Positions 37,487 through 48,537 of a stretch of 64,000 nt of DNA are shown here, in pieces (the first letter of the stretch is position 1; each line of letters opens with the position of its first letter). The stretch is from an uncultured Candidatus Saccharibacteria bacterium (GTDB lineage Bacteria; Patescibacteriota; Minisyncoccia; Phycocordibacterales; UBA918): contig CAZRNZ010000002.1 of assembly GCA_964601615.1 (NCBI GenBank), positions 73,339-137,338 on the forward strand. Reading direction: 5' to 3'. The notes beneath the pieces are model-generated. The model did not search any database. It saw only the letters and a program-made list of their open reading frames with translations, and was not told the origin of the DNA. A program made the translations under genes and the position numbers.

Positions 37487-38959
37487 CTAACCAACCTTAT
37501 GACTTCGTTCAATTTTCTTTATTTCAGCTAACTCTTCTTCCTTTTGTCTTTCCTTACCTTGTTCACCAAGTTCTTTTAATTCATTTTCACTTAACTTTAG
37601 TAGTTCCAAAACCCTATTATCCATATATTCTTCGGTATTTTTTGAAGGATCTTCTAGTACTTCTTCTAAAAGTGCATGAAGAATGTAACCAAGCTTTCTT
37701 CCTGGTTTCTCACCAGTGTCTTTCATTATCTTGTCACCGTTAGTTTTAAGCATTTTGACTGAAATAGGGTCACGTAATGCTTGATCTACCATTGATTTGT
37801 ATTTACGGAAGCGGAAAGGTTGTTCTTTTGGTCTGCCTGTACCAACTCTGTCCAAAACTCGTAATGTTAGCAAGTCTTCAATATTTTCCTCCCCTACTCT
37901 TGTGATGGTGCGTCTTACGGCAGAAAGACTAATCTCATCTGGATCAGCAAAAAACATATGCCAACGCACTAATATCTCTACTTTTTTGGCCATTTCATTA
38001 GGGATTTTTAGCCTTTTCATTATCTTAGCCGTCATTTTGGCTCCTACAACTTCATGACCAAAAAACGTGTAACGTTTATTTTTACCGCCTTCCCTTCTGG
38101 TAGCTGGTTTACCAATATCGTGTAACAAGGCTGCTATACGCATTTCAGTAGAAAGTTTCTTATCTGCAGCTGCTTGCATGCTACGAAGAAGATGTTCGTA
38201 AACATCAAAAGCGTGAATTCCTCCTTGTTCACAACCAATAGAATCTTTTATTTCAGGTAAAACATAGTCAATCAAACCAAGTTTTTCCAACATCACTATC
38301 CCCATCATGGGATTATCAGAATTTATAATACGGATAAATTCGTCACGAATACGTTCAGCAGAAATATGGCTCAAAAGAGTGCTATTTTTGGAAATAGAGT
38401 TCATTGTTTCAGACTCAATAGCAAAATTTAACTCAGCAGAAAGTCGGATAGCTCGCATCATACGAAGGGCGTCTTCACTAAAGCGCTCATCGGGATTTCC
38501 TACCGTTTTGAGGCGTTTTTTACGCATATCGTCTTCCCCGTCAAACAAGTCAACAGTCTTTTCATCCTTAAGACGAAAAGCAATAGCATTTACAGTAAAG
38601 TCTCTTCTTTTTAAGTCTTCTTCTAAAGAAACACCAAACTCCACGTTGTCTGGTCTTCTTCTATCAGAGTAGCCACTTTCTGTACGATAAGGAGTTACTT
38701 CTACTACCTTAAGTGTTTCCTCTTCTGTATCTTCATTTATCACCCCCACAGTTCCATAGTCATTGTTGGCATAAGAGTCTGGGAAAATAGCTTGAATCTC
38801 TTCTGGAGTTGCATTGGTGGTTAGATCCCAATCCTTCGGAGTCCTCTTTAGCATTAAGTCGCGCACACATCCGCCTACCAAATATGCTTCAAAACCGTTT
38901 TCTTCTAATCTTTCAGAAATAGCCACTACTTCTTTTGGAACATCTTCTCTTGTTAGCAT
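37487..38959 (-). CDS. cca: CCA tRNA nucleotidyltransferase (class II NTase with HD domain)
   Basis: LVGGCVRDLML head motif, the HD-domain HDIGK motif, and tRNA-NT body domains. Confidence 0.88.
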   Translation of the reverse strand: MLTREDVPKEVVAISERLEENGFEAYLVGGCVRDLMLKRTPKDWDLTTNATPEEIQAIFPDSYANNDYGTVGVINEDTEEETLKVVEVTPYRTESGYSDRRRPDNVEFGVSLEEDLKRRDFTVNAIAFRLKDEKTVDLFDGEDDMRKKRLKTVGNPDERFSEDALRMMRAIRLSAELNFAIESETMNSISKNSTLLSHISAERIRDEFIRIINSDNPMMGIVMLEKLGLIDYVLPEIKDSIGCEQGGIHAFDVYEHLLRSMQAAADKKLSTEMRIAALLHDIGKPATRREGGKNKRYTFFGHEVVGAKMTAKIMKRLKIPNEMAKKVEILVRWHMFFADPDEISLSAVRRTITRVGEENIEDLLTLRVLDRVGTGRPKEQPFRFRKYKSMVDQALRDPISVKMLKTNGDKIMKDTGEKPGRKLGYILHALLEEVLEDPSKNTEEYMDNRVLELLKLSENELKELGEQGKERQKEEELAEIKKIERSHKVG

Positions 38960-39043
38960 AAATTATTGATTTTAATTGTATCAATAGATTGTTTATTTGT
39001 CGTTGCTTTTTGTCTCTCTTAAAAGTATAGTAGTTGTCTAAAT

Positions 39044-39116
39044 GCGCCTGTGGTGAAATGGATATCACAACTGACTTCGGATCAGTCGTTCTGGGTTCGA
39101 GTCCTGGCAGGCGCAC
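39044..39116 (+). tRNA. tRNA-Arg (anticodon UCG)
   Basis: Manual cloverleaf: acceptor GCGCCTG/CAGGCGC, D-stem GTGA/TCAC, anticodon stem ACTGA/TCAGT with loop CTTCGGA, T-loop TTCGAGT. CCA is not encoded. Confidence 0.8.
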
Positions 39117-39124
39117 TGATACAT

Positions 39125-39148
39125 AAAACCTGCCCTGCGGCAGGTTTT
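39125..39148 (+). terminator. Terminator after tRNA-Arg
   Basis: aaaacctgccctgcggcaggtttt. Confidence 0.65.
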
Positions 39149-39157
39149 ATGATAAGT

Positions 39158-39260
39158 GCGAGGCGAAGCGTTGTATTTTTATCTTTTCATAGAGAAAAAT
39201 ACCGCGAGCCGGGGTCGAGAGTGCTTAGTAAAATAAGAGCGTAGCGAATATATTTTACTT
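39158..39260 (+). repeat. tRNA-linked repeat, copy A
   Basis: The 55-nt core GGCGAAGCGTTGTATTTTTATCTTTTCATAGAGAAAAATACCGCGAGCCGGGG matches 45599-45648 with about 4 mismatches and contains an internal hairpin. Confidence 0.7.
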
Positions 39261-39431
39261 AGCAACTCGTGACCACTTGTTATATTTAACTACAAAGTTC
39301 TACCTTGTAATTAGGTAACCACATAGATACTACTGTAAACAAAAAAGCCCTGCTGTGGTGGAACACAACAGGGCTAGGCCAAGAGGCCTTTAATCAGGCT
39401 TGGAACAACCTGATCGATGCGACTGGATCAG

Positions 39432-40040
39432 CTAAGTCTGGTCGCAAGGTTGAATATAATAGAAATCAGTTAATTTCAAGGCTTTTAGTAAATCATTTAC
39501 CTGCACACTCATCTCCTTGGTACCATCTACCACTAAGTCAGCAAATTCCTTAGGCGAGCTCTCTTTGGTGTATTCAAGTTCTTTAGTCTGCCAATTTAGC
39601 CAAGATTGTTTGATTTCTTCTTCACTTTTACCATCCATTCCTCTATCTCTTTCTATTCCCCTTTCTAAACAAATATCTAACGGAGTATCAACAAAAATCC
39701 CATAATCAATATATGGTCTTAAATTTGTTTTGAGTGAACTAATTCCCTCTAGAATCATTACTTCTGTAACAGCTTGGTTTGTCACTGGTTCAGGAAAATG
39801 TTCTTCCCACCACTTAGATCTAGGGTAATTAAGTTCTCTTTCTCCATTAATAATTGGCTCAAACACTAGCTTTATCATTTCATCTTGCCAAGCAGTCGGA
39901 TTCTCCCAGCTAGCAAAATCATCGGTATGAATTATTTCGGCTTGTAATTTATCAGATAAGTATTTTGCTAGTGTTGATTTGCCTGACCCACCGTGTCCGT
40001 CAACAGCTATCAGTTTTATGGGTAGTTTCCCTCTTTTCAT
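39432..40040 (-). CDS. P-loop nucleoside/nucleotide kinase family protein (uridine-kinase-like fold)
   Basis: Walker A AVDGHGGSGKSTLAKYL near the N-terminus, 202 aa. Substrate unknown. Confidence 0.65.
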   Translation of the reverse strand: MKRGKLPIKLIAVDGHGGSGKSTLAKYLSDKLQAEIIHTDDFASWENPTAWQDEMIKLVFEPIINGERELNYPRSKWWEEHFPEPVTNQAVTEVMILEGISSLKTNLRPYIDYGIFVDTPLDICLERGIERDRGMDGKSEEEIKQSWLNWQTKELEYTKESSPKEFADLVVDGTKEMSVQVNDLLKALKLTDFYYIQPCDQT

Positions 40041-40141
40041 AACAAAAGTCTATAACAAAAATTTCTTTATACAATATGCAATTTGCATGTTAATAACTGT
40101 TCAACTTGAACAGTCGTTTATGTATATAATATATACATTCT

Positions 40142-40807
40142 ATGATTCGAAATGAAGAAAAGTACCAAAAAGCAACATATTTTCGTAAGCGTGGTTTTTC
40201 TTATACAGAAATAGCTAAATTGGTGGGTGTTTCCCGTGGAACATTAAGTAATTGGTTTGCTAAAAAAAGCTTTTCTAAAAAGGTTAAAGTTGATAATGAA
40301 ATAAAGACAAGAAAAGAAAATGTTAAAAGAATCTCACTTTTAAATAAGGCCCGTCAAACAGAAAAAAATAAAAAGCATAAAGAAGTTCTTAAATCAGCCA
40401 ATACTGAGTATAAAAATTATCGCCATCTTCCCCACTTTATGGCGGGAATAGCCCTATATGTGGCCGTGGGTGATTTAGGTAACAATAACAATATTAGATT
40501 ATCTGATTCTAGAATAGATATTCATAAGATCTTTATAAGGTTTTTAGTAGATTTTCTTGGGATGGATAAAAAAGATATCAAATGTTGGTTAGCAATTGAT
40601 TCTAAAGAAAAGGAATCTAAGGAAGTTGCTGTTTGGTCTAAGTTATTAAAGATATCTTCTGAAAATTTCTATAAAAGTCAGGTCATAAGTAATATTAATC
40701 AATCAACATTGCGAAAAACCATAGGAAATACTATAATCGTAAACGCTACTTTGAAGCAGAAGCTCAATAGATGGGTAGAGTTGGCCTCAAAAGAGTTAGT
40801 TAAATAA
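40142..40807 (+). CDS. Lys-rich protein with an N-terminal helix-turn-helix
   Basis: RKRGFSYTEIAKLVGVSRGTLSNWF HTH at residues 15-40. The rest has no recognisable domain. The stop abuts tRNA-Gly(GCC). Confidence 0.5.
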   Translation: MIRNEEKYQKATYFRKRGFSYTEIAKLVGVSRGTLSNWFAKKSFSKKVKVDNEIKTRKENVKRISLLNKARQTEKNKKHKEVLKSANTEYKNYRHLPHFMAGIALYVAVGDLGNNNNIRLSDSRIDIHKIFIRFLVDFLGMDKKDIKCWLAIDSKEKESKEVAVWSKLLKISSENFYKSQVISNINQSTLRKTIGNTIIVNATLKQKLNRWVELASKELVK

Positions 40808-40809
40808 AA

Positions 40810-40880
40810 GCGGCCATGGTTAAGTGGTATAATGAGTCCTTGCCAAGGATTAGTGGAGAGTTCGATTCTCTCTGGCCGCA
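40810..40880 (+). tRNA. tRNA-Gly (anticodon GCC)
   Basis: Acceptor GCGGCCA/TGGCCGC, anticodon stem AGTCC/GGATT with loop TTGCCAA, T-arm GAGAG-TTCGATT-CTCTC. Confidence 0.8.
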
Positions 40881-40924
40881 CATATGAAAAACCCCCTTAT
40901 AGGGGGTTTTTCATATGTGCGGCC
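40874..40924. repeat. 23-bp perfect inverted repeat (hairpin) whose 5-prime arm overlaps the last 7 nt of tRNA-Gly(GCC)
   Basis: ggccgcacatatgaaaaaccccc ttat gggggtttttcatatgtgcggcc. The arms contain the CATATGAAA(AA)C half of the 14-bp palindrome family. Confidence 0.8.
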
Positions 40925-40960
40925 AGAGGAAGATACTTCCTGTCTCTCCGTAAAAAATCA

Positions 40961-41050
40961 AAAAGCGGAGTGTTGAACTTTTGCCTTATAAGCAAAAGTT
41001 CCGCGGTTTTGGGCAGCGGGTACTTTTGAGCAAAGCGAATTAGGAACTTT
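40961..41050 (+). repeat. tRNA-linked repeat, copy B (rearranged or degenerate)
   Basis: Shares aaagcggag(t/c)gttg, ccgcggttttgggcagcgggtac (like cgcggttttcccgtgctcgcac) and gagcaaagcgaattaggaactt with copy C. Confidence 0.55.
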
Positions 41051-41096
41051 TGTTGCTTCTCTCTAACATGTCTGCCAACACTTCCTTTTCCCTAGT

Positions 41097-41823
41097 GTTT
41101 CATATGAAACAAGTTATCCACAAAGTTAAATGTTCTGTCCTAGATTTTGAGACTGTGTATAACTAAGGGGACAAGTGGATTAAGGACTTTCTGTTTTGTT
41201 CTTAATATTTGTAAATATGGCTATAAATAAGGGTCTTTTAAGACTTTTATGCCCTATACAGTAATCTTATACGTTTCACGTGAAACATCTAGATATATGT
41301 TTCATATGAAACGTTACAAATATAATGCACTTGAGAGTGAGGTTATAATCAGATTAGTGACCAATAAAAAGAATAATAAAATAATGGGTAATTTAGGTGA
41401 AGATATTGCCGAAAAATACCTTAGAAATAAGGGTTTTATTATTTTAGAAAGAAACTATTTAAGAAAATGGGGAGAAATAGATATTGTTACACGTGGAACC
41501 GGACTTGAATGGAAAAATTCTGATGTTTCATATGAAACATCAGAAAAAGTACATTTTGTGGAAGTTAAGAGTGTTTCATATGAAACAAAAGAGGAATTAG
41601 CTTGGGCTGTTACACATGAAACATGGCGACCAGAAGAAATGGTTCATTTTCATAAAATGAAACAAATAAGAAAAGTCGTTGAATCTTGGTTGATTGAAAA
41701 TAATTGGGAAGGGGATATTCAGATTGACGTCATTGCAGTCAGGATCGTTTCACGTGAAAAGTATGCAACAGTAAAATATATACCAAACATAATCTTAGAT
41801 TAATGTGTCACGTGTAACATAAC
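41097..41823. repeat. Array of about 8 copies of a 14-bp palindrome GTTTCA(TA/CG)TGAAAC, irregularly spaced, in and flanking the YraN-like gene
   Basis: Perfect copies at 41097, 41273, 41299, 41525 (extended 20-bp palindrome gatgtttcatatgaaacatc) and 41573. One-mismatch copies at 41609 and 41747. Degenerate copies at about 41480 and 41806. Confidence 0.85.
41384..41803 (+). CDS. yraN: YraN/UPF0102-family predicted endonuclease (restriction-endonuclease-like fold) with repeat-encoded insertions
   Basis: GNLGEDIAEKYLRNKGFIILERNYLRKWGEIDIV ... VHFVEVKS ... IDVIAV matches the YraN core motifs. The ORF-track start at 41249 adds 45 aa that contain two palindromes, so the start was set at the Met preceding the GxxGE motif. 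Confidence 0.6.
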   Translation: MGNLGEDIAEKYLRNKGFIILERNYLRKWGEIDIVTRGTGLEWKNSDVSYETSEKVHFVEVKSVSYETKEELAWAVTHETWRPEEMVHFHKMKQIRKVVESWLIENNWEGDIQIDVIAVRIVSREKYATVKYIPNIILD

Positions 41824-41860
41824 TAAGTGGCTAATAATATGGATATTATAGGTATGTCCT

Positions 41861-41906
41861 TTATAGAAGACGTTTATGTCTTTTATAAAGGACATACATT
41901 TTGATT
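41861..41906. repeat. Hairpin repeat ATGTCCTTTAYA...TRTAAAGGACAT, copy 2 (copy 1 at 36157-36185)
   Basis: gtatgtcctttata gaagacgtttatgtcttt tataaaggacatac. Copy 1 is atgtcctttaca taattt gtaaaggacat. Confidence 0.7.
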
Positions 41907-41947
41907 AATACGACCTTCAGTTTGAATTAATTTTGTCCACATAAATA

Positions 41948-41981
41948 AAGCGCTTTTAAACTTTAGTTTAAAAGCGCTTTA
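41948..41981 (-). terminator. Terminator downstream of tRNA-Pro
   Basis: aaagcgcttttaaactttagtttaaaagcgcttt. Confidence 0.65.
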
Positions 41982-41988
41982 TTTGTTG

Positions 41989-42059
41989 TCGGGGAGCCGG
42001 GAATCGAACCCGGACCACACGGTCCCAAACCGCGTACACTACCACTATGCTACACCCCG
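41989..42059 (-). tRNA. tRNA-Pro (anticodon UGG)
   Basis: Acceptor CGGGGTG/CTCCCCG with one T-T mismatch, anticodon stem CGCGG/CCGTG with loop TTTGGGA, T-arm CCGGG-TTCGATT-CCCGG. Confidence 0.7.
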
Positions 42060-42086
42060 AGGAAGTGAGAGTCGTGATATTTGTTT

Positions 42087-42146
42087 TCTCAGAGTTCAAA
42101 CGAAAAAAGGGGAGTTTCCTCACATTTTTTCGTTTGAACTCTGAGA
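42087..42146. promoter_or_regulatory. 22-bp perfect inverted repeat in the divergent tRNA-Pro / sigma-factor promoter region
   Basis: tctcagagttcaaacgaaaaaa [16-nt loop] ttttttcgtttgaactctgaga. Confidence 0.6.
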
Positions 42147-42311
42147 TAGCAAGCTTTGCTTGCAAAATATCAAGACCGAATAACGAAAGGGTGAAAGCTT
42201 GCTTACACCACTGATACCTTTTGATTAACTTCCGCAAATTCATCAACAAACTTGCGACAAAATCATATCACTTTTTCTGAAAAAAGCGAGACTTGAATAA
42301 GATTATGTGCA

Positions 42312-42956
42312 ATGAAAGATATCGGCATTTGGCTCGTCTATGTATATAATGGATTCCACATGGCTAGTAACCACAAAACAGGCCAAATATCTGGAAGCCA
42401 GGAGGATCTTTTTTTGAAAGCCTTTGACGAGTATGGAGATGCGCTTTTTCGACACGCCTTCATGCGAATAAGTGACAGAGAGCGGGCAATAGACCTGGTT
42501 CATGATACTTATGCAAAAGTGTGGTCATATGTAAGGTCTGGTCATGAAATAGATTCCTTTCGACCTTTTCTATATAAGGTTTTAAACAATCTGATTATAG
42601 ACGAGTATCGAAAGAAGAAAGAATCATCGCTAGATGCTTTGCTAGAAGCTGATGGTGTGAGTGAGGCTAGTTTTGATGGCTTGATAGAAGACGGTACAGA
42701 ATCTCTCATCAACAATATCGATGGCGGAAAGGCCTTTGATTTACTCAGTACATTGCCAGATGATTATAGGGAAGTGATGATACTAAAGTTTGTTGATGGG
42801 CTAGGTCCTAAAGAAATAGCATCACTTATCGAAGAGACGGAAAATGTTGTCTCTGTAAGACTCTATCGTGCTATGAAGGCCTTGCGAAACGCAATTGAAG
42901 AAGAGGAAAATCGCTTGATCGGTAATAGTAAAAATTCCAATCAAGATGATATTTAA
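42312..42956 (+). CDS. RNA polymerase sigma-70 family factor, ECF-like
   Basis: Region 2 (DLVHDTYAKVWSYV...FRPFLYKVLNNLIIDEYRKK) and region 4 HTH (DYREVMILKFVDGLGPKEIASLIEETENVVSVRLYRAMKALR). An alternative start is at 42360. Confidence 0.85.
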   Translation: MKDIGIWLVYVYNGFHMASNHKTGQISGSQEDLFLKAFDEYGDALFRHAFMRISDRERAIDLVHDTYAKVWSYVRSGHEIDSFRPFLYKVLNNLIIDEYRKKKESSLDALLEADGVSEASFDGLIEDGTESLINNIDGGKAFDLLSTLPDDYREVMILKFVDGLGPKEIASLIEETENVVSVRLYRAMKALRNAIEEEENRLIGNSKNSNQDDI

Positions 42957-44205
42957 ATATAAAATGGAAGATTTTAATCAACAATTTAATAAAAAAGCCA
43001 AGCAGATATCTTTAACTGCAAGTGAGCGCAATGAACTGCGTGAGAGTATTTTGGTTTATATGGATTATCATCCTTTAACTGAAAGTCAGGGTCTTCCAAA
43101 AAGAAAGAAAAAAGATGTTCAAAACTTTTTTCAGAGCCAAATTAATAATGGCTGGTTTTGGGTAAAAGCATCAGGTGTGACAGCAATGTTTTTTATAATG
43201 GTTGTACCTCTTTTGGCAGAAAGATCTTTACCAGGGGATGTGTTGTATCCAATTAAGGTTAGTTTTAACGAAGAATTGCGCGGTGCTTTGGTTTCTTCAC
43301 CATACCAGAAGATTGAATGGGAAACAGAGAGGTTGGAGCGCAGAGTGTCCGAAGTAAAGCTTTTAGCAGATTCTGGGAAGCTTACAACTTCAGCCGAAGC
43401 AGATGTAGCTAAGGCTATGCGTCAGCATAGTAATGCAGCAAAGCAAAGTATTGAGTCAATCAGAGAAAGTAATTCGGATGATGCTTCTATTGCAAATATT
43501 GCTTTAGCTTCAACCTTGGACATATCGGCTGAGATGTTGTCGGGGAGGGTTGCAACAGGAAGTGCCACTTCATCTGCAATGGTTGATGCTGTTAGTGAGG
43601 CTAGAGCGTCAATGGTCTTGGTTGGAAATAATGTTTCATACGATAATTTGATGTCCCGTATTGAGTCTGAAACAACTAGAGCTTACGAATATCTGAATGG
43701 TATAAGCGCTTCTATTTCATCTAGTGATAAGCAGGCAATAGAACGTCGGCTAGAAGATGTTAAAGGAAGGGTAGAATCTGCAACAGAATTACGTGAAAGA
43801 GATGGTGCCGCTGCTGTAAGTGCTTTAGTGGAGGCATTGAGCAGTACTAATAAAGTGATGGTTTTCATGACAAATCTTGAGTTGCGCAAAACTGTTGCCA
43901 TTGAAAAATTAATTCCTTCTGTGCCAACTAAGAGTGAGGAATCTGAATTATTGAAGGTGAAGTTATCTGATATTTCATTGACTGCATCCAAGATTGATAC
44001 GGCCATATCTGAATTAGCTACCACCTCAGAAGGGTATAGTGACATGGTTTTACAAATGAAAGAATATAAAGAGATGAGTTCATCCAGTTTGAATATGTTA
44101 GAGAAGGGGGAGTTACAGAATGCTAAGGAATCTGTTGCTAATATTATGAAAAAAGTAGATCAAGTTATTGTTAATCTGAAATTGGTTGGTGTGGAGATTA
44201 AGTAG
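42946..44205 (+). CDS. Single-pass membrane protein overlapping the sigma gene, putative anti-sigma factor
   Basis: About 70-aa cytoplasmic N-terminus, one TM (WFWVKASGVTAMFFIMVVPLLA), about 330-aa helical extracytoplasmic domain. Role inferred from the 11-bp overlap with the ECF sigma gene. Confidence 0.45.
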   Translation: MIFKYKMEDFNQQFNKKAKQISLTASERNELRESILVYMDYHPLTESQGLPKRKKKDVQNFFQSQINNGWFWVKASGVTAMFFIMVVPLLAERSLPGDVLYPIKVSFNEELRGALVSSPYQKIEWETERLERRVSEVKLLADSGKLTTSAEADVAKAMRQHSNAAKQSIESIRESNSDDASIANIALASTLDISAEMLSGRVATGSATSSAMVDAVSEARASMVLVGNNVSYDNLMSRIESETTRAYEYLNGISASISSSDKQAIERRLEDVKGRVESATELRERDGAAAVSALVEALSSTNKVMVFMTNLELRKTVAIEKLIPSVPTKSEESELLKVKLSDISLTASKIDTAISELATTSEGYSDMVLQMKEYKEMSSSSLNMLEKGELQNAKESVANIMKKVDQVIVNLKLVGVEIK

Positions 44206-44229
44206 GAGTGATAGGATTTTTGGTAAACA

Positions 44230-44260
44230 AATGACCGCCAGCTTTGCTGGCGGTCATTTA
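44230..44260. terminator. Bidirectional terminator
   Basis: aaatgaccgccagctttgctggcggtcattt. Confidence 0.7.
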
Positions 44261-44272
44261 GTTTTCTTTTAT

Positions 44273-45337
44273 CTATTTTATATTCTGGGAGAGTATCTTG
44301 GTTAAAATAATACCTACTGTTTCGTTAAAAAGTTCAGCCCTTTCGTCCAGGTTCCCTTTTGACATTGTGTTTATATCAAAACCAGTTTCTTCATAGACTG
44401 TTCTATTTATGTAAGAAGTTGATATGGCATTTAAAGCAGTCGAGTCATCCTCTTTTGTGCTTACAACTCCAATTGATTCTCCTTTGTGGTTTATTACTGG
44501 ACTACCAGATGCTCCTTGGTAACCAACAGGGGAATTATCAAGAGAAATTAAATCTGCCAAACCACTACCGAATGTGTACATTTTTTTAATTGTTGTAGTA
44601 GAAATAGTTTTTGTATTCTCTTGAGAGATGGATTTATTTAATGGGTATCCTACTAGTATTACTGTACTATCATGCTCACTAACTTCTAATGGAGAGGTTA
44701 GTGAGGGTATAAAGGCAAAGTTTTCTATTTTTTTATTATCATTAGATGTTAAATAAATAAAAGCAAAGTCATTTTCACCTGTTCCTCTTGGTTCAGTGGC
44801 TGATATTAAGTGAGCATTTCTGATAACCCAAGAAGGTGATATGTACAACAGTTTTGTATTGTAAATTGTTTCCATATCTTCTCCTGTTCTTGCTTCACAA
44901 TCTATCTCACCAAGAGAATTATCATTTTGAAGTAAAAGGAATTGAGCAATGTGAGCATTTGTTATAACTAGACCATTTTGACTAATAACGAACCCGGTTC
45001 CGGTAATGGTTTTGTTGGCTTCATTGGTTTGAAGTTTACAACTAATCTTTACTATTGCATCTTCAATGTTTTCATTTTTGGCGGTAGTTATAATTTCTTC
45101 TGACGAAGTAATTTCCTCTGAAGATGCTAATCTTATTGCCTCCAATCTTATTCTTTCGAGAGATAGTTTTAGTACATCGACAATTGAATTGTTGGATGTC
45201 TCGTCAGAAATTATTGATATCGATGCTGACTGATCTTTAATTTCCTCTTTGGAGTTTTTATTCAATACTGACCAAAACAAAGTTGCTATCAGAAAAGTCA
45301 GTATTATAGATATTAATATTTTGGTCAATTTTATCAT
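44273..45337 (-). CDS. Membrane-anchored trypsin-like (S1) serine protease
   Basis: N-terminal TM. Catalytic-triad contexts TGTGFVISQNGLVITNAHI (His), DFAFI (Asp), GASGSPVIN (Ser). Confidence 0.8.
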   Translation of the reverse strand: MIKLTKILISIILTFLIATLFWSVLNKNSKEEIKDQSASISIISDETSNNSIVDVLKLSLERIRLEAIRLASSEEITSSEEIITTAKNENIEDAIVKISCKLQTNEANKTITGTGFVISQNGLVITNAHIAQFLLLQNDNSLGEIDCEARTGEDMETIYNTKLLYISPSWVIRNAHLISATEPRGTGENDFAFIYLTSNDNKKIENFAFIPSLTSPLEVSEHDSTVILVGYPLNKSISQENTKTISTTTIKKMYTFGSGLADLISLDNSPVGYQGASGSPVINHKGESIGVVSTKEDDSTALNAISTSYINRTVYEETGFDINTMSKGNLDERAELFNETVGIILTKILSQNIK

Positions 45338-45430
45338 TAGATAAATTTAAGATGATAAAGGAAAAAAGTAAAACAATATCTTTGTGGGTATTGGAAAAAT
45401 GGTTGGCTTTGTGGTAATATCGCTCTGCCT

Positions 45431-45501
45431 GCGGGCATAGTTTAGTGGTAAAACGTCTGCCTTCCAAGCAGAAGATCGGAGTTCGATTCCCCGTGCCCGC
45501 A
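45431..45501 (+). tRNA. tRNA-Gly (anticodon UCC)
   Basis: Acceptor GCGGGCA/TGCCCGC, D-stem GTTT/AAAC, anticodon stem TCTGC/GCAGA with loop CTTCCAA, T-loop TTCGATT. Upstream promoter TTGGAA-18-TAATAT with an extended -10. Confidence 0.8.
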
Positions 45502-45510
45502 CTAGTAAAC

Positions 45511-45540
45511 AAAAAGAACACACTTTTGTGTGTTCTTTTT
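45511..45540 (+). terminator. Terminator after tRNA-Gly(UCC)
   Basis: aaaaagaacacacttttgtgtgttcttttt. Confidence 0.65.
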
Positions 45541-45593
45541 GTACGTGTGTGGGCAACAGTAAGCGCCACTTCGGCGCTTACGTGGGGAATCGA

Positions 45594-45704
45594 AAGGCGG
45601 AGCGTTGTATTTTTCTCTTTTCCTAGAGAAAAATACCGCGAGCCGGGGCAGCAAGTCCTTGTGAACAAAGTGAATTAGGAACTTGCGCGGTTTTCCCGTG
45701 CTCG
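45594..45704 (+). repeat. tRNA-linked repeat, copy C (longest)
   Basis: Matches copy A over the 55-nt core and copy B over the flanking modules. Has an internal 9-bp hairpin tttttctct...agagaaaaa. Confidence 0.7.
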
Positions 45705-45710
45705 CACAAT

Positions 45711-45788
45711 AAAAAACCGACAACTCTTTGAGTTGTCGGTTTTTCTGTATTTATTACTCAAAACAAAAGACCTCTTTTGAGGTCTTTT
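45711..45788. terminator. Two tandem hairpin terminators downstream of hup
   Basis: aaaaaccgacaactctttgagttgtcggttttt and aaaagacctcttttgaggtctttt. Confidence 0.65.
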
Positions 45789-45803
45789 GTTGCATCGCTG
45801 TCA

Positions 45804-46076
45804 TTATTTCACAGCATCCTTAAGTGCTTTGGCGGCACGGAACTTAGGTACGCGCATTGCTGGAACTTCAATTGATTCTCCAGTGCGAGGATTGCGAGCT
45901 GTACGAGCGTCGCGTGACTTGGTAGAGAAAATACCTAGACCAGCGATAGATACTTCCTGACCACTCTTAAGTGTATCAACAACACTGTTGATTACTGTTT
46001 CAACAGCTCTTTCTGCATCAGCTTTTGTTATGTCTAATGATTCGTGTACTTTGTTGATTATGTCTGCCTTATTCAT
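45804..46076 (-). CDS. hup: DNA-binding protein HU
   Basis: 90 aa; MNKADII...[28 protein letters not shown] is the HU arm signature. Confidence 0.93.
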   Translation of the reverse strand: [90 protein letters not shown]

Positions 46077-48410: not shown

Positions 48411-48489
48411 ATTTTGTTTATTAAATAATTAATCCAGTTTTTCAGTCGTTTCAGATGTACTGCACTTCTACATTAGCAGATTGATGGAT

Positions 48490-48536
48490 AAATGAAAACC
48501 GGGCGACTGTCTTCGACAGTCGCCCGATTTTCATTT
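48490..48536 (-). terminator. clpP terminator
   Basis: aaatgaaaaccgggcgactgtcttcgacagtcgcccgattttcattt. Confidence 0.7.
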
Positions 48537-48537
48537 A

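What the first reader, a model, noticed from the sequence alone, without database searches (positions are those of the whole stretch)
39158..45704. Family of ~100-nt repeats located 40-95 nt downstream of three different tRNA genes
The copies are at 39158-39260 (after tRNA-Arg), 40961-41050 (after tRNA-Gly GCC) and 45594-45704 (after tRNA-Gly UCC). Copies A and C share a 55-nt core with about 4 mismatches, (g/a)GCG(a/g)AGCGTTGTATTTTT(a/c)TCTTTTC(a/c)TAGAGAAAAATACCGCGAGCCGGGG. The core contains an internal hairpin whose stem mismatch differs between copies. Copies B and C share the flanking modules gagcaaagYGAATTAGGAACTT and cgcggttttSSSgYgCkcgSac. Each copy follows the tRNA's own terminator hairpin. 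The repeat may be an independently transcribed small RNA family, or the conserved end of an element that integrates next to tRNAs. It could also be tRNA-trailer processing signals.
Basis: seen in the sequence. Interest (0 to 1): 0.6.

Follow-up and report, generated by a model that had tools for sequence, protein, structure and literature searches.

The report
tRNA-linked structured RNA cassettes in Patescibacteria
The three repeats are copies of a roughly 160-base folded RNA module found just downstream of transfer-RNA genes across the Patescibacteria; its two ends are copied from the neighbouring tRNA, and it is a previously undescribed counterpart of the poorly understood "tRNA-linked repeats" of E. 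coli.

Summary
The three copies are collinear homologues, not shuffled modules. They belong to a family of about 160-nt structured elements that I found only in Patescibacteria (CPR) loci.

- **Linkage:** nearly every element sits 20-100 nt downstream of a tRNA or tmRNA gene on the same strand, or second or third in a tandem array.
- **Structure:** a covariance model finds exactly three copies in the window (C 119 bits, A 70, B 56) and 39 in all. 89% of cells are paired and 44 of 46 pairs covary.
- **Ends:** each complete element is closed by a stem made from an inverted copy and a direct copy of the last 15-25 nt of the upstream gene. For tRNAs this rebuilds the acceptor/T-stem minihelix.
- **State in the window:** copy C is complete, A has lost its frame, and B is decaying.
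- **Dynamics:** related genomes show filled and empty sites, different cores in the same frame, and one insertion after the clpP stop codon.

The closest known kind is the E. coli tRNA-linked repeats, including RtT RNA. They share the architecture, but no sequence homology could be shown, and their function is unknown.

Most likely these are co-transcribed RNA cassettes released by tRNA-processing enzymes. Transcription, processing and function are all inferred. How the frame is copied from the upstream gene is unexplained.

The parts
39044..39116 (+). tRNA-Arg(UCG), host gene of copy A; no encoded CCA
   Evidence: ARAGORN; Rfam tRNA 61 bits
39125..39148 (+). Hairpin after tRNA-Arg, AAAACCTGCC-CTGC-GGCAGGTTTT. 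Its CTGC loop is the one typical of 'hairpin X' in other family members
   Evidence: Sequence; compared with hairpin X in the alignments
39162..39274 (+). Copy A core. It contains P1/P2 (GGCGAAGCG...CGCGAGCC), hairpin 1 (39173-39202, one A.G mismatch) and a long hairpin 2 (39215-39274) tipped by GA-GC-GUA-GC-GAA. It has no tRNA-derived frame (no ANTI, hairpin X or DR2), so it is a truncated or rearranged copy
   Evidence: Model hit 39116-39292, 70 bits; fold z-score -4.7; DR2 and ANTI runs of only 6 nt; same core arrangement in L078
40810..40881 (+). tRNA-Gly(GCC), host gene of copy B
40870..40928 (+). Perfect palindrome with 28-nt arms. It comprises the last 12 nt of the tRNA, the terminator (40893-40906 plus U-run), and ANTI (40917-40928, GTGCGGCCAGAG), which is the reverse complement of the tRNA 3' end
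   Evidence: the repeat finder I3, 100% complementary; terminator scan; 12-nt ANTI run
40917..41077 (+). Copy B, a decaying element. ANTI is intact and the 5' domain with hairpin 1 (40975-41003) folds, with P1 replaced by AAAAA/UUUU. The inner stem of hairpin 2 is broken. DR2 is reduced to TTCTCTCT (41057-41064)
   Evidence: Model hit 56 bits; fold z-score only -0.4; the orthologous site in L138 holds an intact copy at 131 bits
45431..45502 (+). tRNA-Gly(UCC), host gene of copy C
45511..45540 (+). Hairpin/terminator of tRNA-Gly(UCC), AAAAAGAACACAC-TTTT-GTGTGTTCTTTTT
   Evidence: Sequence
45548..45707 (+). Copy C, the complete element (160 nt). ANTI-acceptor 45548-45555 (UGUGGGCA); hairpin X 45559-45581; ANTI-T 45584-45594 (GGGGAAUCGAA). 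P1, GGA/GA internal loop and P2 lie at 45596-45606 and 45637-45645. Hairpin 1 is 45607-45636 (loop UUUCCU) and hairpin 2 is 45649-45687. DR2 45691-45707 (UUUUCCCGUGCUCGCAC) resembles the tRNA 3' end GAUUCCCCGUGCCCGCAC
   Evidence: Model hit 45545-45709, 119 bits. The single-sequence MFE fold gives the closing helix, X, P1/P2, hairpin 1 and hairpin 2. Intact orthologues follow tRNA-Gly(UCC) in L076, L138 and L141
45712..45744 (+). Intrinsic terminator directly after copy C (15-bp stem plus U-run)
   Evidence: Terminator scan
41988..42059 (-). tRNA-Pro(UGG), the only window tRNA with no element downstream. In relatives where this tRNA lies on the + strand it does carry one (L142, L144)

Best explanation
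A, B and C are three paralogous copies of a Patescibacteria-wide family of about 160-nt structured RNA cassettes. C is intact, A has lost its frame, and B is decaying. The cassettes lie directly downstream of tRNA or tmRNA genes and are most likely transcribed with them. They are the CPR counterpart of the tRNA-linked repeats (TLRs) of E. coli.

**Anatomy (shown).** After the tRNA's hairpin come, in order:
1. An inverted copy of the tRNA's acceptor 3' strand (ANTI).
2. A 9-11-bp hairpin X, usually with a CUGC loop.
3. An inverted copy of the T-stem 3' strand and T-loop.
4. A conserved core.
5. A direct copy of the tRNA's last 15-22 nt (DR2).

The core contains:
- P1, a GGA/GA internal loop, and P2.
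- Hairpin 1, 10-12 bp, freely covarying, with a pyrimidine-rich CUUCCUA loop.
- Hairpin 2, with a conserved bulged A and a tip of tandem G.A pairs plus a GNA triloop.

ANTI pairs with DR2. This encloses the core in a helix that reproduces the tRNA's acceptor/T-stem minihelix, with the core in place of the T-loop.

**Mechanism (inferred).**
- Read-through or polycistronic transcripts carry the tRNA plus one to three cassettes.
- The minihelix offers RNase P a 5' site and RNase Z plus the CCA-adding enzyme a 3' site, as on a tRNA. Each cassette is therefore released as a discrete, stable RNA.
- The conserved core would be the working part, probably a binding surface for a protein or another RNA. 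Its target is unknown.

**Evolution (shown).** The cassettes are gained, lost and replaced. Their frame always matches whatever gene end lies upstream.

**Evolution (inferred).** They spread and are homogenised by recombination at the repeated gene end and by template switching across the palindrome.
For: **Family and structure**
- Real homologues occur in seven CPR genomes and seven metagenome contigs.
- RNAalifold, working independently, predicts the closing helix, X, P1, P2, hairpin 1 and hairpin 2. 33 of 46 pairs show compensatory changes.
- Over 39 model hits, 89.2% of cells are paired and 44 of 46 pairs covary. The covariation score is 0.682, against 0.12 or less for slid controls (the 26-sequence set is).
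- MFE folds of the single sequences give this architecture in most of the 14 elements; a few lack the acceptor-like closing helix.
- Element length is uniform at 156-165 nt.

**Linkage to tRNAs**
- Every hit with a tRNA or tmRNA within 500 nt is co-oriented with it. First elements lie 21-45 nt downstream, and later array members at 205-405 nt. One weak hit (L043 3931-4105, 30 bits) is 1705 nt from the nearest same-strand tRNA.
- Exact DR2 runs reach 22 nt.
- In a sample fetched through a protein rather than the RNA pattern, 13 of 32 tRNAs have a model hit just downstream.
- In that sample 13 have ANTI of 8 nt or more (upstream-flank control: 1), and 8 have DR2 of 10 nt or more (control: 0).

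**Co-transcription**
- L075 has a tRNA followed by three cassettes, separated by hairpins without U-runs. A single terminator follows at the end.
- Copy C is followed directly by its own terminator.

**Purifying selection**
- The orthologue of C in L076 has a completely different hairpin 1 sequence, and P2 is changed from GCG/CGC to GCC/GGC. The fold is the same.

**ANTI pairs with its own DR2**
- In L031 the element follows tmRNA, and GGGAAUUG pairs with its own CAAUUCCC. That sequence differs from the tmRNA's AUUCUCCC.

**Precedent**
- E. coli has 22 TLRs at ten loci, one to five per locus. Their last 18-19 bp are identical to the end of the upstream tRNA or rRNA gene.
- Three of them are made by terminator read-through and then processed (PMC8144298).
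- Rfam's RtT consensus has the same kind of closing helix, GGGGAAGGAU with AUCCUUCCCC.
Against: - No expression data exist. Transcription, processing by RNase P and RNase Z, CCA addition and any function are all inferred.
- Only about 45% of the 39 hits keep 6 or 7 of 7 pairs in the acceptor-like helix. Many copies, including B, L079 and the intact L138 B-site copy, have lost the acceptor part of DR2 yet keep ANTI complementary to the tRNA.
- Two copies sit after the clpP stop codon with a frame copied from the coding sequence. tRNA mimicry therefore cannot be the general reason for the frame.
- The excess of G.U over A.C pairs on the proposed RNA strand is weak: 50 vs 34, p about 0.1. A single-stranded DNA structure is not excluded.
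- At least one unrelated core (type 3) uses the same frame. This points to a shared insertion mechanism rather than a shared RNA function.
Confidence: 0.55

Rival explanations
1. The cassettes are non-autonomous mobile DNA. They insert downstream of highly expressed genes, mostly stable-RNA genes, by a mechanism that copies about 15-25 nt of the target in both inverted and direct orientation. The conserved hairpins would be recognised as single-stranded DNA, or as RNA, by the mobilising machinery. Any RNA product would be incidental or serve only the element's own spread.
For: - Filled and empty sites exist. The clpP-rny spacer is empty in the window and in L140 but filled in L138 and L141. 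There ANTI and DR2 match each genome's own clpP end.
- The tRNA-Gly(UCC) site is empty in L140, with no ANTI, and filled in the window, L076, L138 and L141.
- Different cores occupy the same frame at the tRNA-Gly(GCC) site: type 1 in the window and L138, type 3 in L139 and L145.
- The syntenic tRNA clusters of L066 and L079 carry different elements at different tRNAs.
- Decaying copies exist (B) and so do tandem arrays.
- Core sequence is highly conserved across distant CPR lineages.
- The hairpin tips are GNA-triloop mini-hairpins, which are known to be unusually stable in DNA (own knowledge).
Against: - No transposase or integrase gene lies next to the elements in any locus whose genes were tabulated. 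The one integrase-family gene seen (L143 274-1188) is several kb from any tRNA, in a locus with no element.
- All 32 elements within 500 nt of a tRNA or tmRNA are in the transcribed orientation, as expected for an RNA.
- Orthologous copies persist with compensatory changes.
- No known transposition mechanism yields an inverted plus a direct duplication of 20 nt of the target.
- The full family pattern gave no hit in viral contigs.
Confidence: 0.25
2. The elements act in cis on the upstream gene. ANTI can pair either with the end of the upstream RNA (the tRNA 3' strand or the clpP coding end) or with DR2. This would form a switch that tunes termination, 3' maturation or stability of the upstream RNA in read-through transcripts.
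For: - There are three mutually exclusive pairing partners: T, its complement T', and a second copy of T.
- The palindrome tRNA end-terminator-ANTI is perfect over 28 nt in copy B and over 24 nt in L139.
- ANTI is often kept when the acceptor part of DR2 is lost.
- ANTI and DR2 track changes in clpP.
Against: - The tRNA folds as it is transcribed, before ANTI exists, so invasion of the acceptor stem is unlikely.
- A conserved 100-nt core and tandem arrays are not needed for such a switch.
- Many tRNAs in the same genomes lack any element.
Confidence: 0.1
3. The direct repeats of the tRNA 3' end are att-site scars left by integrase-mediated insertion and excision of genomic islands or prophages at tRNA genes.
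For: tRNA and tmRNA 3' ends are classic integration sites, and integration duplicates the tRNA 3' end (own knowledge). DR2 runs of 15-22 nt are seen.
Against: - The DNA between the repeats is a conserved, covarying module of uniform length, 156-165 nt. It is not variable island remnant.
- Integration does not explain an inverted copy or hairpin X.
- No integrase gene lies next to the elements.
- One insertion lies after a protein-coding gene.
Confidence: 0.03

Closest known systems
tRNA-linked repeats (TLRs) of Escherichia coli (Egan & Landy 1978; Rudd 1999; reviewed in PMC8144298)
   Same: - They lie immediately downstream of a tRNA or rRNA gene, in the same operon and orientation.
- There are one to five units per locus.
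- The 3' end of each unit repeats the last 18-19 bp of the upstream RNA gene.
- Some are made by terminator read-through and then processed.
- No function is known for the family.
   Different: - There is no detectable sequence relationship.
- Complete CPR elements rebuild the full acceptor plus T-stem helix and carry an extra hairpin X.
- The CPR core is conserved across several CPR lineages.
- The CPR frame lacks CCA, because CPR tRNA genes do not encode it.
- One CPR insertion site is a protein-gene end.
RtT RNA (Rfam RF00391; rttR, tyrT-tyrV operon of E. coli)
   Same: - It is a unit of 130-171 nt repeated four times after the tRNA-Tyr genes.
- Rfam's consensus closes the RNA with GGGGAAGGAU paired to AUCCUUCCCC. 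That is an inverted copy paired to a direct copy of the tRNA's T-stem/acceptor 3' strand.
- It contains GA-GC-GAA-GC-GA mini-hairpins like the tip of hairpin 2.
   Different: - The Rfam RtT model does not hit the CPR elements at E up to 10.
- My model scores only 7 bits (E 0.08) on RtT.
- In RtT the helix covers only 10 nt, and CACCACCA stays single-stranded.
- RtT carries a direct, degenerate copy of the tRNA-Tyr variable and T-arm region.
Engineered and natural 'tRNA scaffold' RNAs (RNAs embedded in a tRNA-like fold so that tRNA enzymes process them, e.g. mascRNA/MALAT1; own knowledge)
   Same: An acceptor/T-stem mimic delimits a passenger RNA and could recruit RNase P, RNase Z and the CCA-adding enzyme.
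   Different: Here only the top half of the tRNA is mimicked. The passenger replaces the T-loop rather than the anticodon arm. Processing has not been shown.
tmRNA tRNA-like domain
   Same: The 5' and 3' ends pair into an acceptor stem that encloses a large non-tRNA insert.
   Different: - tmRNA keeps an intact T-arm and a D-loop, and is a single-copy gene.
- ARAGORN and Rfam do not call the cassettes tRNA or tmRNA.
- In L031 a cassette follows the true tmRNA gene.

Membership tests
tRNA-linked repeats (TLR), as defined for E. coli | Located immediately downstream of a tRNA or rRNA gene, in the same orientation and operon | tested here: met
   All hits with a tRNA or tmRNA within 500 nt are co-oriented and 21-99 nt downstream, or later in an array. 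Exceptions: two copies after clpP and one weak hit 1705 nt from a tRNA (L043).
tRNA-linked repeats (TLR), as defined for E. coli | The 3' end of the unit is identical to the last ~18-19 bp of the upstream RNA gene | tested here: met
   Exact runs of 15-22 nt in L075, L066, L065, L077, L140 and L145. Within the window the match is only partial: C has two mismatches over the acceptor strand plus one near the T-stem, B keeps an 8-nt remnant, and A has none.
tRNA-linked repeats (TLR), as defined for E. coli | One to five units per locus, in tandem | tested here: met
   Three in L075; two in L023, L027, L071 and L077. The window has single units.
tRNA-linked repeats (TLR), as defined for E. coli | Transcribed with the upstream gene and processed to a discrete RNA | not testable with these tools
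   There is only indirect support. The L075 spacers lack terminators and a terminator follows copy C.
RtT RNA (Rfam RF00391) | Match to the family covariance model at or above the gathering score (45 bits) | tested here: not met
   No RtT hit even at E up to 10 in window 38900-46000, or at E up to 1 in L066. The same model scores 133-138 bits on the E. coli units.
tRNA / tmRNA | Cloverleaf with D, anticodon and T arms (tRNA), or a tRNA-like domain plus tag reading frame (tmRNA) | tested here: not met
   ARAGORN and Rfam tRNA/tmRNA models call only the four true tRNAs. The cassette has an acceptor-like and a T-like helix but no T-loop, D arm or anticodon arm.
Integrated island bounded by a duplicated tRNA 3' end (att sites) | Integrase gene and variable cargo between the direct repeats | tested here: not met
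   The content is a conserved module of about 140 nt. No integrase lies next to the elements.
MITE / IS-derived element | Family-wide terminal inverted repeats, a short target-site duplication and a cognate transposase | tested here: inconclusive
   The ends are inverted repeats (ANTI/DR2), but they differ at each site and equal the local upstream gene end. No transposase was found.
Group I intron (known in Patescibacteria tRNA genes, PMC13011429) | Match to the group I intron model and insertion within the tRNA | tested here: not met
   No Rfam intron hit. The elements lie outside intact tRNAs.

The most novel reading that the evidence does not exclude
The cassettes could be a new kind of self-propagating RNA-coding element. 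On insertion it would build its own closing stem from an inverted and a direct copy of the 3' end of the gene upstream. By landing behind tRNA genes it would acquire a tRNA-like minihelix that gives it tRNA-type processing, CCA addition and stability. That would make the obscure enterobacterial TLRs one branch of an ancient, widespread class with an unknown copying mechanism. It might also carry a conserved cellular function in the reduced genomes of Patescibacteria.
Probability: 0.2. Interest if true: 0.8.

Novelty: new variant of a known kind. Interest (0 to 1): 0.6.

Why it matters
tRNA-linked repeats have been known in E. coli since 1978, and the family as a whole has no assigned function.

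This work finds an unrelated but architecturally equivalent family that is:
- abundant, following roughly 40% of tRNA genes in an unbiased sample;
- structurally conserved, in the very small genomes of Patescibacteria.

This argues that such cassettes are either useful or very good at persisting. The family also offers much better comparative material than the E. coli repeats, with dozens of covarying copies and with filled and empty sites.

Three practical points follow:
- The cassettes are a source of unannotated structured RNA in CPR genomes.
- They could confuse the calling of tRNA-flanking islands or att sites.
- The rule that the frame is copied from the upstream gene end poses a concrete mechanistic question.

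Tried and rejected
- **Rfam.** Searches at gathering score and at permissive E-values on the window, L066 and E. coli found no known family for the cassettes.
- **Known housekeeping or catalytic RNAs.** I considered 5S rRNA, SRP RNA, RNase P RNA, 6S RNA, the hammerhead and the k-turn by eye, and rejected all of them:
  - The hairpin 2 tip reads CUUAUGA...GAA, but G5 is missing and there is no three-way junction.
  - There is no Rfam support.
  - The element is multicopy with site-specific ends.
- **Hairpin 1 as an anticodon-arm mimic.** The loop CUUCCUA was considered, but the position equivalent to nucleotide 37 is usually U. It was not pursued.
- **Hairpin 1 loop as an anti-Shine-Dalgarno sequence.** The genes I looked at in the window lack clear SD motifs. 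This is left as speculation.
- **Viral origin.** The full pattern gave 0 hits in viral contigs. A 17-mer from the hairpin 2 tip gave 55 hits. These are unrelated sequences sharing a GCGTAGC mini-hairpin, with no tRNAs nearby.
- **Genome scan.** 66 of the 73 genome hits were chance matches in GC-rich genomes. They had no hairpin 1 and no significant model hit.
- **Homology to RtT.** The result was marginal, 7 bits.
- **Strand test by G.U versus A.C counts.** It was only weakly informative.
- **ANTI as a copy of the tRNA's own 5' half.** Rejected because non-palindromic T-loops appear reverse-complemented: TTCGATT becomes AATCGAA in L075, and TTCAATT becomes AATTGAA in L066. G.U pairs of the tRNA also become Watson-Crick pairs in the element.
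- **Literature.** Four searches for CPR tRNA-like or tRNA-downstream RNAs found nothing relevant.
- **A failed check.** My register-specific comparison of ANTI with tRNA positions 66-72 was out of register, so I do not use it.

Full report
**1. The observation**

The window carries four tRNA genes: Arg(UCG) 39044-39116, Gly(GCC) 40810-40881, Pro(UGG) 41988-42059 on the minus strand, and Gly(UCC) 45431-45502. None encodes CCA. The repeat finder confirms the similarity downstream of the three plus-strand tRNAs:
- A and C share 66 nt at 88% identity.
- B and C share 56 nt at 77% identity, in register.

Aligned together, the three copies are collinear. The layout is GCGRAGYGUUG, then a hairpin whose stem differs completely between B and A/C, then CCGCG..., then a second hairpin with a conserved tip GARCRWAGYGAAU. 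The 'cgcggtttt' similarity between B and C lies at non-equivalent positions. No Rfam family matches, even at E up to 10.

**2. Relatives**

Flanking genes mark the window as Patescibacteria (CPR). They include DUF5667, an ECF sigma factor, RNase Y and the CCA-adding enzyme, and homologues are labelled Kaiserbacteria or Paceibacterota.

A degenerate pattern from the three conserved segments gave 73 hits in one genome per species. Sixty-six were chance matches in GC-rich genomes. Seven, all in CPR genomes, had a perfect but different hairpin 1. These genomes were Nomurabacteria, Kaiserbacteria (two), Saccharibacteria, Paceibacterota, Minisyncoccia and one labelled only Patescibacteria group. A tighter pattern found seven more in metagenomes.

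**3. Anatomy**

Reading the flanks shows that each complete element is about 160 nt (156-165) and has a frame copied from the upstream tRNA. After the tRNA's hairpin come:
- **ANTI-acceptor:** the reverse complement of the acceptor 3' strand.
- **Hairpin X:** 9-11 bp, often with a CUGC loop.
- **ANTI-T:** the reverse complement of the T-stem 3' strand and T-loop back to G53.
- **The core.**
- **DR2:** a direct copy of the tRNA's last 15-22 nt.

ANTI is not a copy of the tRNA's 5' half, because non-palindromic T-loops appear reverse-complemented (L075, L066, L079). ANTI and DR2 pair. This rebuilds the acceptor/T-stem stack, with hairpin X where the D and anticodon arms would leave and the core in place of the T-loop.

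Several results support this fold:
- RNAalifold on 13 full-length elements predicts the acceptor-like helix, X, P1, P2, hairpin 1 and hairpin 2 on its own. 33 of 46 pairs show compensatory changes.
- MFE folds of the single sequences agree for most of the 14 elements.
- A covariance model finds 39 copies in 331 kb of CPR sequence. The best control hit in 507 kb of non-CPR loci had E 0.38.
- On the 39 copies, 89.2% of cells are paired and 44 of 46 pairs covary. The score is 0.682, against 0.12 or less for slid partners.

The model-fitted alignment leans towards the structure, but the RNAalifold and single-sequence results do not depend on it.

**4. State of the window copies**

- **C (45548-45707)** is complete. 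The closing helix UGUGGGCA/UGCUCGCA has two G.U pairs. X, the T-like helix, the core and DR2 are all present, and a terminator follows at 45712-45744.
- **B (40917-41077)** keeps a perfect 12-nt ANTI inside a 28-nt-arm palindrome with the tRNA end. Hairpin 2 and DR2 are broken, and its fold z-score is -0.4.
- **A (39162-39274)** has a well-folded core with a lengthened hairpin 2 (z-score -4.7) but no frame. L078 shows the same core arrangement.

**5. Linkage, arrays and co-transcription**

Every model hit with a tRNA or tmRNA within 500 nt is co-oriented and downstream. Spacing is 21-45 nt for first elements and 205-405 nt for second or third elements. One weak hit (L043 3931-4105, 30 bits) lies 1705 nt from the nearest same-strand tRNA.

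In L075, tRNA-Gly(CCC) is followed by three elements. They are separated by small hairpins without U-runs, and one real terminator follows at the end. This argues for a single transcript.

To avoid selection bias I fetched nine syntenic loci through the HTH protein encoded at 40142-40807. Among 32 tRNAs, counting those in the window:
- 13 have a model hit just downstream.
- 13 have ANTI of 8 nt or more, against 1 in the upstream-flank control.
- 8 have DR2 of 10 nt or more, against 0 in the control.

**6. Dynamics**

- **tRNA-Gly(UCC) site.** It is filled in the window, L076, L138 and L141. It is empty in L140, where the tRNA and terminator are present but ANTI is not. ANTI therefore arrives with the cassette.
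- **tRNA-Gly(GCC) site.** It holds a type 1 core in the window, L138 (intact, 131 bits), L140, L142, L144 and L146. In L139 and L145 an unrelated core sits in the same frame, and the L145 DR2 is 21-22 nt identical to the tRNA.
- **L066 and L079.** They share a tRNA cluster but carry different elements at different tRNAs.
- **clpP.** Two model hits lie right after the clpP stop codon in L138 and L141, whereas the window and L140 have an empty spacer. There ANTI is the reverse complement, and DR2 the direct copy, of the last 12-25 nt of each genome's own clpP coding sequence.

The frame is therefore copied from whatever lies upstream. tRNA mimicry is a consequence of where the cassettes usually sit. 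It may still be exploited.

**7. Comparison with what is known**

The literature library holds nothing on such elements in CPR. The group I introns reported in CPR tRNA genes are unrelated.

The architecture matches the tRNA-linked repeats of E. coli:
- There are 22 units at ten loci, one to five per locus.
- The last 18-19 bp are identical to the end of the upstream tRNA or rRNA gene.
- No function is known, and the stringent-response claim for rtT was retracted.
- Three units downstream of 5S rRNA are made by read-through, are processed, and bind Hfq and CsrA in vitro (PMC8144298).

I checked the tyrT-tyrV locus directly. There are four RtT units, each ending in the tRNA-Tyr 3' end. Rfam's consensus closes each with GGGGAAGGAU paired to AUCCUUCCCC, which is also an inverted copy paired to a direct copy.

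Sequence homology is not demonstrable. The RtT model does not hit the CPR elements, and my model scores 7 bits on RtT. I therefore file the finding as a new variant of the TLR kind, not as a member of the RtT family.

**8. How it most likely works**

*Shown:*
- A conserved, covarying fold.
- Tight, oriented linkage to tRNA genes.
- A frame derived from the upstream gene end.
- Arrays, and gain, loss and replacement.

*Inferred:*
- Cassettes are transcribed with the tRNA.
- Where the frame is complete, the minihelix presents RNase P and RNase Z/CCA sites, so each cassette is released as a stable RNA.
- The conserved core then binds an unknown partner. Its conserved features are the GGA/GA loop, the pyrimidine-rich hairpin 1 loop, the bulged A and the tandem-GA/GNA tip.
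- Recombination between the direct repeats, and template switching across the palindrome formed by the gene end, hairpin and ANTI, would explain arrays, precise loss and the match of the frame to the host gene.

*Unexplained:* how a new insertion acquires a 15-25-nt inverted plus direct copy of its target.

*Main rival:* the cassettes are essentially selfish mobile DNA (or RNA-mediated) elements and the fold serves their spread. The data do not separate this cleanly from a cellular function, and the two are not exclusive. The weak G.U excess does not exclude a single-stranded DNA structure. Uniform orientation and the terminators favour RNA.

**9. Verdict**

The feature is real and reproducible. 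It is not a known RNA family. It is the CPR analogue of a known but unexplained kind of element, and it is of moderate to high interest because it gives that old puzzle a large, structured data set with insertion polymorphisms.

Noticed in passing
window 41090-41820: There are at least eight copies of the palindrome GTTTCA(T/C)(A/G)TGAAAC in and around the UPF0102/YraN-like ORF (41249-41803). Some lie inside the coding sequence (families D1/D4/D6). The same palindromes lie upstream of the orthologous gene in L139 (11077-11115).
   Followed up: partly
window 42081-42152: A long hairpin with 34-nt arms (88% complementary) lies just upstream of tRNA-Pro on its transcribed side (I1). Its role is unknown.
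   Followed up: no
L138 18331-18483 (-) and L141 19382-19538 (-); empty counterpart at window 48411-48537: A cassette of the same family is inserted directly after the clpP stop codon. It is framed by an inverted and a direct copy of the last 12-25 nt of the clpP coding sequence. The window and L140 have the empty site.
   Followed up: yes
L139 10790-10890; L145 10790-10935; L066 2190-2320; L081 (about 760-900 on the strand shown): A second, unrelated cassette core occupies the same tRNA-derived frame. Two sub-forms are seen...AAAAGGTGYAC.GAA.CTGTAAG in L139 and L145, and GGTTGMCAGC...GCGACAACCTGTACCG..CATGTAATG in L066 and L081. In L145, tRNA-Pro has an 18-nt repeat of its 3' end at +128 with yet other content.
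   Followed up: partly
window 37487-38959 (-) next to tRNA-Arg 39044-39116: The CCA-adding enzyme gene lies in the neighbourhood of tRNA-Arg(UCG) in the window and in all nine syntenic loci, usually directly adjacent. None of the window's tRNA genes encodes CCA.
   Followed up: no
L076 about 560 (-); L075 about 6475 and 6085 (-): The spacer between a tRNA and its cassette can be just a GNA-triloop mini-hairpin flanked by A and T runs (AAAAAAGCGTAGCGAGTTTT, AAGCAAAGCGC). The same mini-hairpin forms the tip of hairpin 2 and also occurs in E. coli RtT units.
   Followed up: no
L139 9856-9902: After tRNA-Arg there is a perfect 24-nt-arm palindrome made of the tRNA 3' end, the terminator and ANTI, with no cassette core behind it. 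It is either a remnant or an independent extension of the palindrome.
   Followed up: no
L082-L136 (viral contigs), e.g. L103, L110, L119, L092, L126: Several phage contigs carry clusters of short hairpins tipped by GAGCGNAGCGAA or GAACGAAGTGAAC motifs. They are not members of this family and are not next to tRNAs.
   Followed up: partly
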